51,075 nucleotides of DNA, taken from positions 1-51,075 of the forward strand of contig CAZCLJ010000002.1 in NCBI GenBank assembly GCA_964499465.1, given 5' to 3'. A program made the position numbers and the translations under genes. Source of the DNA: an uncultured Hyphomicrobiales bacterium. GTDB taxonomy: Bacteria > Bacteroidota > Ignavibacteria > Kapaibacteriales > UBA2268. Within the stretch, counting starts at the first letter, position 1, and each line of letters begins with the position of its first letter. The notes beneath the pieces were generated by a model. It was not told the DNA's origin and ran no database searches. It was given only the letters and a program-made list of their open reading frames with translations. Below, piece after piece: positions 28,821 to 31,470 of the stretch.

Positions 28821-28987
28821 CACGTTTGGGATTCGAACCAAAATTATCCATATTTTCCAGCCTCTTTGACGAAAACGAAAAAAACCTGACGTAATCAGGT
28901 TTTTTCGTTTTTTTGCTAACAATCGCCAGCCACTCGGGTCTGCACGATACTAAATTGTCTCTGCGGAGAGTGAGGGATTTGAACCCT
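28821..28987. repeat. Intergenic module B, paralogous to module A
   Basis: Same architecture as module A. The identical 34-mer is at 28933-28966. The terminator hairpin is CCTGA..TCAGG flanked by A/T runs. Its right end is the tRNA-Ser 3' copy. Confidence 0.65.
28962..28987 (-). repeat. Direct repeat: exact 26-nt copy of the tRNA-Ser 3' end (attR-like)
   Basis: TGCGGAGAGTGAGGGATTTGAACCCT is identical to 31382-31407. On the minus strand that is part of the T stem, the T loop, the acceptor 3' strand and 3 further nt. Confidence 0.85.
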
Positions 28988-29084
28988 ACAGACGGATTTT
29001 GAGGAAGACCAATGAAATCAAGTTAAGTGCCGGATTCATTGGGTGAAGCGATGCTTTTCGACTTATCAGCTTTAATCAACTTTT

Positions 29085-29156
29085 ACCAACTTTCATCACT
29101 TTTTGGGCAACCGGCGGTCAACCGCCAGCAATACAGGAAAGGTGATGTGGTTGGTG
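29085..29156 (+). repeat. Heptad/inverted-repeat element, copy 2
   Basis: Inverted repeat ACCAAC..CATCACTTT / AAAGGTGATG..GTTGGT. It encloses GGGCAAC-N4-GGTCAAC (29105-29111 and 29116-29122), a GGCGG-TCAA-CCGCC hairpin and GCAATACAGGAA. It ends 5 nt from the stop of the minus-strand methyltransferase. Confidence 0.6.
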
Positions 29157-29161
29157 GGTGA

Positions 29162-29755
29162 TCATTTTTGAGATATCATTTTAACGACGCGATGCTGATG
29201 AGGGTTTGGGCATCCCGGATGCCCCGGATCGTCTATGACTTTCTCTTCATAAAAAACGGTGGTGAAATCAGAAAAAATATCTTTCAACTCCCCTTCCTTA
29301 AAAAACCCCTTATCGGTATTTTTATCAGAATCGCTTAAAAAACCAGAGACAACAACATACCCGCCGACGATCAATCCTTTTTTAATGTTTTCTATAACCG
29401 CCAAAACATCAGCCTTAGCCATAAACTGAAAAACATTAAAAGCATTGATAACAGAAAAACCGTTGGCCTTAATTAAAAAATCTTTAGCATCACCGCAGGC
29501 CAGTTCAATCATATCCTCCGGCAACTTAGCCATCTTTACTGTTTCTGAAATTTTATTCAGACCCTCTTGAGATTTATCAATAGCAACAACCTTAAACCCC
29601 TTTTTCAGCATAAAAAGCGAATCGCGACCTTGACCGTAGCCTAAATCTAAAAAAGTGGCTGGAGTGTCTATTTTTTCACTAACTATTTTTAATAAAGAAT
29701 TAGGGTCGACTCCCCAGACAGAATTGTTGTTTTTGTATATTTTATCGTATTTCAT
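29162..29755 (-). CDS. Class I SAM-dependent methyltransferase (TehB-like)
   Basis: FLDLGYGQGRDSLFMLKKGFKVVAIDKS (motif I plus the acidic post-I residue). 197 aa. Confidence 0.8.
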   Translation of the reverse strand: MKYDKIYKNNNSVWGVDPNSLLKIVSEKIDTPATFLDLGYGQGRDSLFMLKKGFKVVAIDKSQEGLNKISETVKMAKLPEDMIELACGDAKDFLIKANGFSVINAFNVFQFMAKADVLAVIENIKKGLIVGGYVVVSGFLSDSDKNTDKGFFKEGELKDIFSDFTTVFYEEKVIDDPGHPGCPNPHQHRVVKMISQK

Positions 29756-29771
29756 AGTTTTATTATAACAA
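29753..29771 (-). promoter_or_regulatory. Extended -10 promoter with leaderless geometry for the methyltransferase
   Basis: Minus strand: TGTTATAAT, then 6 nt, then the ATG. No SD. Confidence 0.35.
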
Positions 29772-29778
29772 ATTATTT

Positions 29779-29809
29779 AAAAAGCGATAGTCCCAAAGAG
29801 ACTACCGCT
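29779..29809 (-). terminator. Intrinsic terminator between the rSAM gene and the methyltransferase
   Basis: Minus strand: AGCGGTAGTC-loop-GACTATCGCT (10 bp, one G-U) followed by TTTTT. Confidence 0.65.
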
Positions 29810-29813
29810 CAAA

Positions 29814-30884
29814 CTACACACATCGCCAACATTGTGGATCTTTATCAAAAAAACTGCCTGTAGTGCCGGCAGAAACAGCATGACAACCTCTGCAATATTG
29901 CAAAAGATTGCAATCTTTACAACCAGAAAGATTTTCGACTTGACGATATTTTTCCATCTCTGGTGACAAAAATATATCTTTAAAACTCTGGGTATTAACA
30001 TCACCAACCAAACTATCAAATCTTCTACAAGCGTAAACCGTACCATTTGGAAGCAACGTCATATGAGAAATTCCACAATTACAACCATCAAAAATTATAT
30101 TCTTTTCTTCGCAAAGCTCATAAAGACCTTCTTCGTAAAGAAAAGGTGTCCACAGATGATCTTTTAACGAAAATTTGGTCTTGCCATCTATAAACCTAGA
30201 ATATACTGTCCACATTTCCGAAAGAAATTGTCTATAAAGTTTCGGAGACATACCATATTCAATATCTCCACGGGTTGGACAATAACGCGCAAAAGCAAAG
30301 TTCCCGACTTCATTATCAACACATAACTTAACCACATCGGCGACTTCTTGATAATTCAATAATGAAACCGTTGTCATTATCATGCTTCTAATTCCGTATT
30401 GATGTAAAAGAGGAATTGCTTCCATTGTTGCCTTAAAAGATCCCGATTTTCTCATTTTGTCGTGAGTTTCTTTTAAGCCGTCGAGGGACATTTGGTAATT
30501 TGCGCAACCGAAATTCTTTAGAAGCTGCAAATTATCAGGAGTGAGATGAAAAGGGTTCCCCAAAATTGTAAAACCGATTTCATGCTTTTTCAAAACTGCA
30601 AGCAGTTTCCAGACATCAGCATACAATAACGGATCTCCACCAGTAATTGAAAAATGAGGGATAACAGACATTTGCTCACAAAAATGAAGGAAATCAACGA
30701 TAATTTTCTCGGCTTGAGAGATGGTGGGGGTAGCTTTAAACCCTTCTTTTTCGTGTTTTTGCCAGATATAGCAATGCTGGCATCGTTGATCACATTTGTT
30801 AGTCAAATGCCATTGAAGACCGAATGTTTTTTTCACTACAACCTCCTGTTTTGGAAAATAAGGGGGAGAAAACTCCCCCTCCAT
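29814..30884 (-). CDS. Radical SAM / SPASM-domain peptide-modifying enzyme (intact)
   Basis: The CxxxCxxC is C31-DQR-C35-QH-C38, in WHLTNKCDQRCQHCY. GGDPLL follows. C-terminal auxiliary-cluster cysteines: DGCNCG...YACRRF, GCKDCNLLQYCRGC, QCWRC. Confidence 0.9.
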   Translation of the reverse strand: MEGEFSPPYFPKQEVVVKKTFGLQWHLTNKCDQRCQHCYIWQKHEKEGFKATPTISQAEKIIVDFLHFCEQMSVIPHFSITGGDPLLYADVWKLLAVLKKHEIGFTILGNPFHLTPDNLQLLKNFGCANYQMSLDGLKETHDKMRKSGSFKATMEAIPLLHQYGIRSMIMTTVSLLNYQEVADVVKLCVDNEVGNFAFARYCPTRGDIEYGMSPKLYRQFLSEMWTVYSRFIDGKTKFSLKDHLWTPFLYEEGLYELCEEKNIIFDGCNCGISHMTLLPNGTVYACRRFDSLVGDVNTQSFKDIFLSPEMEKYRQVENLSGCKDCNLLQYCRGCHAVSAGTTGSFFDKDPQCWRCV

Positions 30885-31042
30885 TATTCCCGCTCACTGT
30901 CGCAGCTGCCACCGCAACCACCCGAACAGCTGCAACGACCACGATCTGGATTTGACCCTGGATGCATTATAGTCTGAGCACTACCAGCAAATACGCGGTT
31001 AGATTTTCTATTCCAGTAATTGAACCGAGCCAGGCTTTTCAT
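30884..31042 (-). CDS. Candidate RiPP precursor peptide, 52 aa. Not in the ORF track.
   Basis: My translation: MKSLARFNYWNRKSNRVFAGSAQTIMHPGSNPDRGRCSCSGGCGGSCDSERE. SD AAGGTGA lies 6 nt upstream. The stop TAA overlaps the rSAM ATG (TAATG). Confidence 0.7.
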   Translation of the reverse strand: MKSLARFNYWNRKSNRVFAGSAQTIMHPGSNPDRGRCSCSGGCGGSCDSERE

Positions 31043-31098
31043 TTTTATCACCTTCTTTCTTTTGTTTTAAATGAGCTGGCGACTTGAATAACAAAAAA

Positions 31099-31127
31099 AG
31101 CATATCACAATGCTATACTTTTGTCAA
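31099..31127 (-). promoter_or_regulatory. Sigma70-like promoter for the peptide-rSAM operon
   Basis: Minus strand: TTGACA (31127-31122), 17-nt spacer, TATGCT (31104-31099). Confidence 0.55.
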
Positions 31128-31218
31128 TGATTACGTGATTAAATCAAATAAAACTTATTAATCATTTACATACCCGGCCTTTTCCTTGTCCGAAATTCCG
31201 TAGTCAAAAGCCTATTTT

Positions 31219-31315
31219 ATTGCTTTTGCTATACCGAAAATAGTCAAGAACAATAGTGGGCACAGGTTGGGCACAAACGCCGAAATTCGCCTGCCCGCGG
31301 AGGCGATAAAGCAAT
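31219..31315 (+). repeat. Heptad element, copy 3 (divergent)
   Basis: GGGCACA-N4-GGGCACA at 31258-31264 and 31269-31275, in the same context as copy 1 (..GGGCACAGGnnGGGCACAAn(n)CGCC.. then GCGATAAA). A weaker flanking inverted repeat is ATTGCTTT/AAAGCAAT. Confidence 0.45.
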
Positions 31316-31348
31316 TTTAAAAATCAACTTTTACCCTTTAAATACAAC

Positions 31349-31372
31349 AAAAAAAGGCGGTTAAGCCTTTTT
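31349..31372. terminator. Hairpin terminator downstream of tRNA-Ser
   Basis: AAGGC-GGTTAA-GCCTT flanked by A and T runs. Confidence 0.55.
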
Positions 31373-31383
31373 AAATTCGAGTG

Positions 31384-31470
31384 CGGAGAGTGAGGGATTT
31401 GAACCCTCGAAGGCTGTTACACCTTGCCCGCTTTCCAAGCGAGTGCACTAGACCACTATGCGAACTCTCC
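31384..31470 (-). tRNA. trnS: tRNA-Ser (anticodon GGA), class II with a long variable arm
   Basis: I folded it by hand. Acceptor GGAGAGT/ACTCTCC, D arm GCAT-AGTGGTCTA-GTGC, anticodon arm CTCGC-TTGGAAA-GCGGG, 18-nt variable arm, T arm GAGGG-TTCAAAT-CCCTC. 87 nt. Confidence 0.9.

What the first reader, a model, noticed from the sequence alone, without database searches (positions are those of the whole stretch)
28962..31407. 2.4-kb integrase-less island bounded by exact 26-bp direct repeats of the tRNA-Ser 3' end
TGCGGAGAGTGAGGGATTTGAACCCT occurs at 31382-31407, inside and just past the intact tRNA-Ser(GGA), and again at 28962-28987. The identity stops abruptly at both outer edges (..CCCT|CGAAGG versus ..CCCT|ACAGAC). 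This is the classic attL/attR signature of site-specific integration into a tRNA 3' end. The 2394 bp in between carry only the peptide/rSAM/methyltransferase genes and non-coding repeats. There is no recombinase. That resembles a cis-mobilizable (CIME-like) element or a remnant left after tandem accretion and deletion, and it implies the RiPP-like cassette is, or was, horizontally mobile.
Basis: seen in the sequence. Interest (0 to 1): 0.68.

Follow-up and report, generated by a model that had tools for sequence, protein, structure and literature searches.

The report
Integrase-less island at tRNA-Ser gene
A 2.4-kb block carrying a three-gene peptide-modification cassette sits at the end of a serine tRNA gene as the integrase-less leftover of a known kind of mobile element; it is absent from a near-identical strain, so it is real but ordinary in kind.

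Summary
The 26-mer occurs exactly twice, at 28962-28987 and 31382-31407. The second copy is the 3' end of an intact tRNA-Ser(GGA) on the minus strand.

The attL/attR reading is supported by four independent lines.
1. A contig 99.7% identical to the gatA-tRNA flank joins the tRNA directly to the sequence left of 28962. That is a precise empty site.
2. A genome about 91.5% identical lacks the whole 11.1 kb at 20298-31381.
3. Two related genomes carry a tyrosine integrase plus Xis directly after the same tRNA. In one, the same 25-mer closes a 9.1-kb island.
4. About 200 nt inside the distal repeat are a conserved arm. It is shared with that integrase-bearing island and with a second copy of the same cassette that lies in a different flank.

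No family integrase is encoded anywhere in the window. The block is therefore a decayed, CIME-like derivative with cores and arm sites intact. Its cargo is an ACGX-type radical-SAM/SPASM cassette. It is the newest layer of a composite island that also holds a decayed third repeat, an orphan arm, pseudogenes and an IS.

Whether it can still move in trans is untested. Novelty: new member of a known kind. Interest about 0.4.

The parts
31383..31470 (-). Intact tRNA-Ser(GGA), the integration target
   Evidence: ARAGORN. Rfam tRNA 54.2 bits. 100% identical to the tRNA in L113 and over its 88 nt to that in L004.
31382..31407 (.). attL core: the 26-bp identity block, covering the T-arm to the 3' end of the tRNA plus 1-2 nt
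   Evidence: Exact repeat. The same 25-mer bounds the integrase-bearing island in L004.
31080..31381 (-). tRNA-proximal (P') arm, non-coding. It holds the tRNA terminator (31351-31372), GGTAAAAGTTGATT (31322-31335) and the dyad TGCCCA-N5-TGCCCA (31258-31273).
   Evidence: Terminator scan. The dyad lies 107-125 nt from the core here and in L004 and L106. The 14-mer is repeated in the other arm (D16). Similarity to L102 stops at 31078.
31099..31127 (-). Promoter-like site TTGACA-17-(TG)TATGCT upstream of the peptide gene
   Evidence: Consensus scan, 10 of 12 matches. Function is inferred only.
30884..31042 (-). Precursor peptide gene (52 aa; leader MKSLARFNYW..., core RCSCSGGCGGSCDSERE)
   Evidence: ORF and RBS. 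Homologous leader and Cys/Gly-rich cores in L102 and L105. No NCBIfam or Pfam hit.
30864..30879 (-). Hairpin plus T-rich tract between the peptide and rSAM genes (possible attenuator)
   Evidence: Terminator-like scan.
29814..30836 (-). Radical-SAM/SPASM maturase, ACGX-system type. The likely start is GTG at 30836 with an AGGAGG RBS (340 aa). The longest ORF extends to 30884.
   Evidence: TIGR04340 430.3 bits against a cut-off of 400. PF04055 and PF13186. Homologues are 339-340 aa. Start and RBS.
29162..29755 (-). TehB-like SAM methyltransferase, third gene of the cassette
   Evidence: PF03848 at 3.1e-18. Conserved after the rSAM gene in L102-L105 and L109-L112.
28988..29161 (-). Distal (P) arm of the element: dyad TTGACC-N5-TTGCCC+AAAAAGT (29105-29120), GGTAAAAGTTGATT (29074-29087), and ...CCGTCTGT abutting the core
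   Evidence: Aligns over about 200 nt with four other P arms from L004, L102 (two copies) and window 21.4 kb. The dyad lies 117-122 nt from the core in three genomes.
28962..28987 (.). attR core: the displaced copy of the tRNA 3' end
   Evidence: Exact repeat. It is preceded by T where the tRNA has G, as in L004 and L102.
28805..28961 (-). X2: the native tRNA-Ser trailer (conserved 31 nt, small hairpin, terminator 28878-28906, T-arm-like GGTTCGAATCCC at 28830)
   Evidence: It directly follows the intact tRNA-Ser in L001, L113, L085 and L092. The terminator stem shows compensatory changes.
24520..24765 (-). Older remnant: U3 (24703-24765), a decayed tRNA-Ser 3' piece (24677-24702; 73% identical to the 26-mer) and X3 (24520-24676)
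   Evidence: Repeat families D1 and D3. Alignment. The same U-fragment-X arrangement occurs in L084, L089 and L102.
21310..21480 (-). Orphan third P arm of the same family, with a dyad at 21409-21424 and no recognisable core
20298..31381 (.). Composite island: everything between the tRNA 3' end and the point where collinearity with relative L113 resumes
   Evidence: L113 matches window 33023-31436 and 19568-10440 at about 91.5%. Only about 96 nt lie between its tRNA and window position 20297.

Best explanation
The 2.4-kb block is what remains of a small integrative element. Elements of this family use a tyrosine integrase, helped by an Xis-type excisionase, to recombine with the T-loop-to-3'-end segment of tRNA-Ser(GGA) in Patescibacteria-like bacteria.

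Integration rebuilt the tRNA 3' end from the element's own copy. It pushed the native 3' end, together with its native trailer X2, to the far junction. That produced the two identical 26-bp cores.

The int-xis module normally lies directly after the tRNA, as in relatives L004 and L106. It has been deleted here. What is left is a roughly 300-nt proximal arm, the cargo, and a roughly 175-nt distal arm.

The cargo is a precursor peptide, an ACGX-type radical-SAM/SPASM maturase and a TehB-like methyltransferase.

Both cores are identical, and both arms keep the conserved dyad sites at the conserved distance. The block therefore has the anatomy of a cis-mobilizable element (CIME) and could be excised if a family integrase were supplied in trans.

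It is the most recent layer of an 11-kb composite island (20298-31381) built by repeated integration and decay at this tRNA.

Shown: the repeats, the empty sites, integrase-bearing relatives at the same site, the shared arms, and absence of an integrase in the window.

Inferred: that the arm dyads are integrase-binding sites, that int-xis was lost by deletion, and that the block is still mobilizable. I put mobilizability at roughly 0.35.
For: The 26-mer is exact at the intact tRNA end and 2.4 kb downstream, with 0 expected by chance.

Precise empty site: L001 is 99.7% identical to window 33681-31382. It then continues 100% into 28987-28937 with a single copy of the core. L003 independently confirms the filled proximal junction.

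L113, at about 91.5% identity, has the tRNA followed by the X trailer and then window 20297 downwards.

L004 has an identical tRNA, then an integrase (PF00589 at 5.6e-34), an HTH_17 Xis, cargo, and the same 25-mer 9.1 kb downstream. L106 has tRNA-Ser(GGA) with integrase and Xis in the same arrangement. The P0122 contig has int and Xis near gatA.

Five P arms align over about 200 nt up to the core. Dyads sit 107-125 nt from the core on the P' side and 117-122 nt on the P side in three genomes each.

L102 carries the same cassette, P arm and core at 77% identity, followed by a different flank.

No integrase of this family is encoded in any frame of the window.
Against: The proximal arm resembles those of L004 and L106 only through a terminator and the dyad. 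The overall alignment is weak.

The dyad pattern was defined after seeing the sequences. Its enrichment in the window (5 observed against 1.6 expected) is modest.

No statistically supported integrase pseudogene is left in the block, so loss by deletion is an inference.

L001 extends only 25 nt past the core.

The cassette also occurs in ordinary chromosomal contexts with no att features (L105, L109-L112).

The simple model does not explain why the trailer X occurs twice in the window (note).

The distal junction of the window is not confirmed by an independent assembly.
Confidence: 0.8

Rival explanations
1. The origin is the same, but the block is now a fixed, immobile scar. On this reading L001 either never received the element, or lost it through homologous or slipped recombination between the two 26-bp repeats rather than through an integrase.
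For: No integrase is encoded in the 51-kb window. The surrounding 11 kb is full of decay: truncated genes, an IS-split gene and an orphan arm. A 26-bp perfect repeat is long enough for rare RecA-type deletion (own knowledge). This rival is a sub-variant of the best explanation and differs only on present-day mobility.
Against: Both cores are still 100% identical. Both arms keep the dyads at the conserved spacing. The presence/absence polymorphism lies between strains only 0.3% apart.
Confidence: 0.45
2. The block arrived in this lineage by homologous recombination of a larger chromosomal segment from a relative that already carried it. Flanking homology (tRNA/gatA on one side, X on the other) would have been used, with no integrase acting in this genome.
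For: There is a second structural break 2.3 kb away at 33681 relative to L001, which suggests recombination activity around the locus. X modules supply repeated homology.
Against: The insertion boundaries coincide to the base with the att core used by integrase-bearing relatives. This route would still require an original integrase event in the donor.
Confidence: 0.1
3. The second 26-mer is not an att site. It would be part of a dispersed tRNA-Ser-like repeat module (fragment plus X) that is copied around these genomes by some other process, and the cassette merely lies between two copies.
For: Fragment-plus-X modules occur in nine metagenome contigs with varied neighbours, and twice in the window.
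Against: The exact 26-mer occurs only at the tRNA and at the island end. X natively follows intact tRNA-Ser genes (L085, L092, L113, L001). The element side of the core is a conserved P arm shared with an integrase-bearing island. The empty site is precise.
Confidence: 0.05
4. Assembly artefact: the contig was mis-joined across the repeated tRNA 3' end in a metagenome bin.
For: Several public contigs break at this tRNA (L002, L107, L108, L114-L116). This shows the site is an assembly trouble spot.
Against: L003, an independent assembly, spans gatA-tRNA-peptide-rSAM-MTase at 100% identity. L102 independently shows MTase-P arm-core. L001 and L102 show core-X.
Confidence: 0.03

Closest known systems
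CIMEs (cis-mobilizable elements) and tandem accretion, as defined for ICESt1-related islands of Streptococcus thermophilus (Pavlovic et al. 2004, cited in PMC5704250)
   Same: [quoted passage not shown] It lies in tandem with other decayed elements at the 3' end of a target gene. This matches the definition quoted.
   Different: The host is a Patescibacteria-like organism. The parent elements show no conjugation genes: int, xis, in one case a G2P-like Rep, and TA or defence cargo. Cis or trans mobilization has not been demonstrated here.
Dehalococcoides ssrA genomic islands (PMC3146451)
   Same: Multiple tandem islands lie downstream of one small-RNA gene. They are bounded by direct repeats of about 20 bp from its 3' end, with insertion in the T-loop region. 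Fifteen of those islands lack an integration module and were suggested to be CIMEs. Their cargo is an adaptive operon.
   Different: There the target is tmRNA and the integrase is a serine recombinase. Here the target is tRNA-Ser(GGA) and the integrase is a tyrosine recombinase with an HTH_17 Xis. The cargo here is a peptide-maturation cassette rather than reductive dehalogenases.
Classical tRNA-integrating tyrosine-integrase islands and prophages with T-loop sublocation (P4-like and similar; own knowledge)
   Same: The identity block runs from the T-arm to the tRNA 3' end. In L004 and L106 the integrase gene lies next to attL and converges on the tRNA. Arm-type repeats flank the core.
   Different: The window copy has no int or xis and no phage genes. 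Nothing similar was found in the annotated phage, plasmid or IMG/VR collections.
ACGX system (NCBIfam TIGR04340 radical SAM/SPASM with an ACGX-repeat peptide)
   Same: The maturase scores above the curated cut-off (430.3 against 400). A short Cys-rich peptide gene lies directly upstream.
   Different: The peptide matches no NCBIfam peptide model. Its core is C-x-C-x3-C-x3-C in a Gly/Ser background rather than clear ACGX repeats. A TehB-like methyltransferase is a fixed third gene. No paper on this system was found in the library.

Membership tests
tRNA-integrated genomic island (tyrosine-integrase type) | Lies immediately 3' of an intact tRNA gene and is bounded distally by a direct repeat of the tRNA 3' end | tested here: met
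tRNA-integrated genomic island (tyrosine-integrase type) | Presence/absence polymorphism with a precise empty site in close relatives | tested here: met
   L001 (99.7% identity) joins the tRNA to X2 with one core. L113 lacks 20298-31381.
tRNA-integrated genomic island (tyrosine-integrase type) | Encodes its own site-specific integrase next to an att site | tested here: not met
   No integrase in the block or the window. The feature is present in relatives L004 and L106 at the same tRNA.
CIME (cis-mobilizable element) | Lacks integration and transfer genes | tested here: met
   Only peptide, rSAM/SPASM and methyltransferase genes. Integrase HMM search negative.
CIME (cis-mobilizable element) | Retains attL and attR | tested here: met
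   At sequence level only. The 26-bp cores are identical. The conserved P arm and the dyads in both arms sit at conserved distances. Function was not tested.
CIME (cis-mobilizable element) | Derived by decay from an integrase-encoding element | tested here: inconclusive
   It shares core and arms with integrase-bearing islands. No significant int pseudogene remains.
CIME (cis-mobilizable element) | Can be excised or transferred when a related functional element supplies the integrase | not testable with these tools
   Needs read-level attP/attB detection or an excision assay.
ICE / IME | Conjugation or mobilization genes (relaxase, coupling protein, T4SS) or an oriT | tested here: not met
   No such domains in the three island proteins, nor in the L004 island ORFs scanned.
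Prophage or phage satellite | Phage structural, packaging or replication genes | tested here: not met
   None in the block. No match in the phage or IMG/VR collections.
ACGX system (TIGR04340/TIGR04341) | Radical SAM/SPASM protein scoring above the TIGR04340 cut-off | tested here: met
   430.3 bits against 400.
ACGX system (TIGR04340/TIGR04341) | Adjacent precursor peptide with ACGX repeats recognised by the family's peptide model | tested here: not met
   No NCBIfam hit even at E <= 10 for this peptide or its two homologues. The core is Cys-rich, with a single ACGQ only in the L105 homologue.

The most novel reading that the evidence does not exclude
The block could be a live, trans-mobilized element in a population of ultra-small (CPR/Patescibacteria) bacteria. 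On this reading a family of tRNA-Ser-specific integrases shuttles integrase-less cassettes, including an uncharacterized radical-SAM peptide system, between strains. The conserved tRNA-Ser trailer (X) with its extra T-arm-like piece would act as a secondary att site, allowing composite excision and explaining the duplicated X modules.
Probability: 0.2. Interest if true: 0.55.

Novelty: new member of a known kind. Interest (0 to 1): 0.4.

Why it matters
The finding gives a concrete, base-resolved example of site-specific gene flow in Patescibacteria-like genomes, for which I found little published on mobile elements. The target is the T-arm to 3' end of tRNA-Ser(GGA). The integrase family is PF14659+PF00589 with an HTH_17 Xis. 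Both arms are mapped, along with candidate binding dyads.

It also shows that an uncharacterized three-gene peptide-maturation cassette (ACGX-type rSAM/SPASM plus a TehB-like methyltransferase) has been picked up as cargo and is strain-variable. That pattern suits an accessory, probably competitive or signalling, function.

In practical terms, the cores and arms give PCR and read-mapping targets for testing excision. The cassette is small enough to express heterologously.

Conceptually it is a textbook type of island, not a new mechanism.

Tried and rejected
1. Integrase vestige in the 300-nt proximal arm. Three-frame translation against the L004 integrase scored no better than shuffles. A 'GHRLGT' match to the integrase tail is better explained by the DNA dyad itself.

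2. ORF 29027-29161 ('...LFGQPAVN...') as an integrase pseudogene. It lies on the wrong side of the core and points away from it. It coincides with the P-arm dyad, so it was rejected as a vestige.

3. X as a known RNA family. The Rfam E-value scan of 23.5-32.5 kb found only the tRNA.

4. U-fragment as a coding ORF or a tRNA-like acceptor helix. There is no conserved start codon and only 5 of 7 acceptor pairs, judged by inspection. Rejected.

5. Exact-protein look-ups of the methyltransferase, the GT4 fragment and the carbamoyltransferase found no contigs.

6. IMG/VR scans for the core, the P-arm junction, the X 24-mer and the integrase gave only unrelated phages or hits at 29% identity or less.

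7. Plasmid and phage BLAST of the island gave no match.

8. Base composition does not set the island apart: 0.38 against 0.37 for the window.

9. Literature search for 'ACGX' returned nothing.

10. The apparent invariance of the X 24-mer across L084-L092 is an artefact of using it as an exact search pattern. It is not used as evidence.
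Full report
**Observation**

The 26-mer TGCGGAGAGTGAGGGATTTGAACCCT is present exactly twice, at 28962-28987 and 31382-31407. No further copies appear at up to 3 mismatches, and none are expected by chance.

tRNA-Ser(GGA) lies on the minus strand at 31383-31470 (ARAGORN). Rfam gives 31384-31470 at 54.2 bits. Read in tRNA sense, the repeat is AGGGTTCAAATCCCTCACTCTCCG+CA. That is T-stem position 2 through the discriminator, plus two trailer bases. Identity ends abruptly on both sides.

**Anatomy of the 2394 bp between the copies (minus strand, tRNA sense)**

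- Directly after the tRNA comes a terminator (31351-31372).
- About 300 nt of non-coding DNA follow. They contain GGTAAAAGTTGATT (31322-31335) and a dyad TGCCCA-N5-TGCCCA (31258-31273).
- A promoter-like TTGACA-17-TGnTATGCT lies at 31099-31127.
- Next is a 52-aa peptide gene (30884-31042; core RCSCSGGCGGSCDSERE).
- A hairpin lies at 30864-30879.
- A radical-SAM/SPASM gene follows. Its likely start is GTG at 30836, behind AGGAGG, giving 340 aa, the length of its homologues.
- A TehB-like methyltransferase lies at 29162-29755.
- About 175 nt of non-coding DNA abut the distal core.
- The maturase passes the curated cut-off of TIGR04340, 'radical SAM/SPASM, ACGX system' (430.3 against 400). The peptide hits no model.

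**Empty sites**

An exact-protein look-up of GatA returned L001, a Logan contig from run DRR835036. It is 99.7% identical to window 33681-31382 (gatA and the tRNA). It then continues at 100% into window 28987-28937. The intact tRNA is joined, through a single copy of the core, to the sequence left of 28962.

L001 stops exactly where its last 31-mer would become shared with the third-copy region. That is what a k=31 graph would do (own knowledge of how Logan contigs are built). A 31-mer spans the 26-bp core plus unique bases on both sides, so the junction must exist in reads.

L003, from run SRR8925806, independently reproduces the filled proximal junction: gatA-tRNA-peptide-rSAM-MTase at 100%.

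A second, deeper comparison came from the GatA 90% cluster. L113 (GCA_030154545.1, a 141-kb contig) is about 91.5% identical to window 33023-31436 and to 19568-10440. Its tRNA-Ser(GGA) is 100% identical. Only about 96 nt separate its tRNA from the equivalent of window 20297. Window 20298-31381 (11.1 kb) is therefore lineage-specific, and the 2.4-kb block is its tRNA-proximal layer.

**Integrase-bearing relatives at the same site**

The nearest species representatives by GatA are L004 (72% identity) and L005 (67%, labelled Patescibacteria). rSAM and integrase homologues are also mostly labelled Patescibacteria. The taxonomic assignment is an inference.

L004 has gatC, an 834-aa protein, gatA and an identical tRNA-Ser(GGA). 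A convergent tyrosine integrase lies 63 nt downstream (PF00589 at 5.6e-34, PF14659). It is followed by an HTH_17 Xis-like gene and by cargo that includes a SocA/Panacea pair. The same 25-mer AGGGTTCAAATCCCTCACTCTCCGC recurs 9.1 kb downstream.

L106 (GCA_964395625.1) has an integrase 61% identical to that of L004, with an Xis and a G2P-like Rep. They are in the same arrangement against tRNA-Ser(GGA) and near gatA. A third homologue, P0122, also lies with an Xis a few kb from gatA. Public contigs often break at this tRNA.

**Arms**

In the window, L004 and L102, the distal core is preceded by T where the tRNA has G.

The roughly 200 nt inside the distal core align among five copies: window 28988-29161, window 21310-21480, L102 9670-9845, L102 2480-2642 and L004 20660-20852. 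Shared blocks are CTTTCCCTGTATTGC, a dyad TGMCC-N5/6-TGMCC followed by AAAAAG, GTTGGTAAAAGTTG, TGATAAGTCGAAAA and CTTGATTTTATTGG.

The dyad lies 117-122 nt from the core on this side in the window, L004 and L102. It lies 107-125 nt from the core on the tRNA-proximal side in the window, L004 and L106. In L004 and L106 the proximal dyad overlaps the codons of the integrase C-terminal tail FG[HQ]xxG[NT].

I read the dyads as arm-type binding sites. This is an inference, and the pattern was defined after seeing the sequences. Apart from terminator and dyad, the proximal arm aligns poorly with the relatives. No significant integrase pseudogene remains. A profile HMM of 60 family integrases finds nothing in six-frame translations of the window.

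**The cassette as cargo**

The peptide-rSAM-methyltransferase trio is a conserved unit (L102-L105, L109-L112).

In L102 (rSAM 83% identical) nucleotide similarity to the window runs from 31078 to 28963 at 77%. That covers cassette, P arm and core, with the junction ...CCGTCTGT|AGGGTTTAAATCCCACACTCTCCGC. It is then followed by a different flank. L102 also holds a second P arm with fragment and X, and a U-fragment-X5' unit.

In L105 and L109-L112 (70-74% identical) no arm, core or X is nearby. The cassette is therefore widespread in ordinary contexts and was captured by this element family in the window/L102 lineage.

**The rest of the composite island, moving away from the tRNA**

- X2 (28805-28961).
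- Truncated, convergent and overlapping GT4 and epimerase genes.
- A carbamoyltransferase and a CYTH gene.
- U3 with a decayed tRNA-Ser 3' fragment (24677-24702) and X3.
- A second rSAM/SPASM gene split by an IS3-family IS.
- A transglutaminase-like ORF.
- An orphan P arm at 21310-21480.

All five T-loop-like motifs in this region point the same way as the tRNA.

X directly follows intact tRNA-Ser genes in L001 and L113 (GGA) and in L085 and L092 (GCU). It ends in a terminator whose stem shows compensatory changes. X is therefore the native trailer, and its position after the distal core is what integration predicts.

Why X occurs twice, and what the U-fragment-X arrays mean, is unresolved (note).

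**Mechanism and alternatives**

The best-supported account has three steps:

1. A tRNA-Ser(GGA)-specific tyrosine-integrase element carrying the cassette integrated at the T-loop region.
2. The int-xis module was then lost.
3. The remainder keeps both cores and both arms. This matches the published definition of a CIME (PMC5704250). It parallels the integrase-less ssrA islands of Dehalococcoides (PMC3146451).

Confidence in this origin is about 0.8.

Sequence cannot tell whether the block is still mobilizable or is a fixed scar. It also cannot tell whether L001 reflects excision, homologous deletion between the 26-bp repeats, or a strain that was never occupied. I put live mobilizability near 0.35.

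A dispersed-repeat explanation is contradicted by the P-arm homology and the precise empty site. Mis-assembly is contradicted by L003, L102 and L001.

**Verdict**

The finding is a new member of a well-known kind, in an under-studied lineage and with an uncharacterized peptide cassette as cargo. Interest 0.4.

Noticed in passing
window 24520-24765: A third, decayed tRNA-Ser 3' fragment (24677-24702; 73% identical to the 26-mer). It is preceded by a conserved 'U' segment and followed by a second copy (X3) of the roughly 160-nt tRNA trailer. X2 and X3 share a 34-nt exact stretch within about 77% overall identity.
   Followed up: partly
window 21310-21480: An orphan third copy of the element's distal (P) arm, with the dyad at 21409-21424 but no recognisable tRNA-derived core after it. 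It abuts the 3' end of ORF 20360-21307.
   Followed up: partly
window 22205-24460: A second radical-SAM/SPASM gene is split by an IS3-family insertion sequence. The rve transposase lies at 22924-23748, and 37-nt imperfect inverted repeats lie at 22906-22942 and 24066-24102.
   Followed up: partly
window 27178-28658: A truncated NAD-epimerase (+ strand, 267 aa) and a truncated GT4 glycosyltransferase (- strand, 247 aa) converge and overlap by 67 nt. This looks like a deletion scar inside an older island layer.
   Followed up: no
window 33023-33696: Synteny breaks just upstream of gatA. L001 (99.7% identical) and L004 have gatC, an 832/834-aa methyltransferase-HAD fusion, then gatA. The window keeps only the HAD part, and identity to L001 ends at 33681. 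L113 has gatC-gatA directly. To the right, the window carries adk and a long low-GC glycosyltransferase cluster instead.
   Followed up: partly
L085, L089, L092, L084, L090, L102 (metagenome and ENA contigs); window X2/X3: The trailer X follows intact tRNA-Ser(GCU) as well as tRNA-Ser(GGA). It also occurs after decayed fragments in U-fragment-X arrays. L085 and L089 are 99.2% identical from CTCTCCGCA onward but differ upstream (intact tRNA versus U-fragment). This may indicate a second element family or a functional 3'-trailer RNA. It is unexplained.
   Followed up: partly
L113 11541-11894; L092 3370-3645: A small GIY-YIG ORF sits immediately upstream of tRNA-Ser in two relatives. In L113 it is accompanied by a decayed 5' fragment of the tRNA, which suggests a separate insertion event at the 5' side of the same tRNA.
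   Followed up: no
L102 5270-5480 and 7490-7700: A long inverted repeat (GGGTCAGGTCTGGAATTAAGAC...GTCTCAATTCCAGACCTGACCC) plus a shared leader occurs twice, upstream of two different radical-SAM operons. It may be a shared regulatory module.
   Followed up: no
window 29027-29161 (+): A 44-aa ORF ending ...LFGQPAVNRQQYRKG mimics the C-terminal tail motif FG[HQ]xxG[NT] of the integrase family. It coincides with the P-arm dyad, so it is more likely DNA-site conservation than a gene remnant.
   Followed up: yes
L106 302-1501; L004 17345-19951; P0122 contig: Cargo of the integrase-bearing relatives. L106 has a G2P/Phage_CRI-like Rep. L004 has a SocA/Panacea pair and a weak TIR hit. The P0122 contig has RadC, a MutH-like protein, a C5 DNA methylase and an HATPase protein. 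These are small defence or TA-type integrative elements without conjugation genes.
   Followed up: partly
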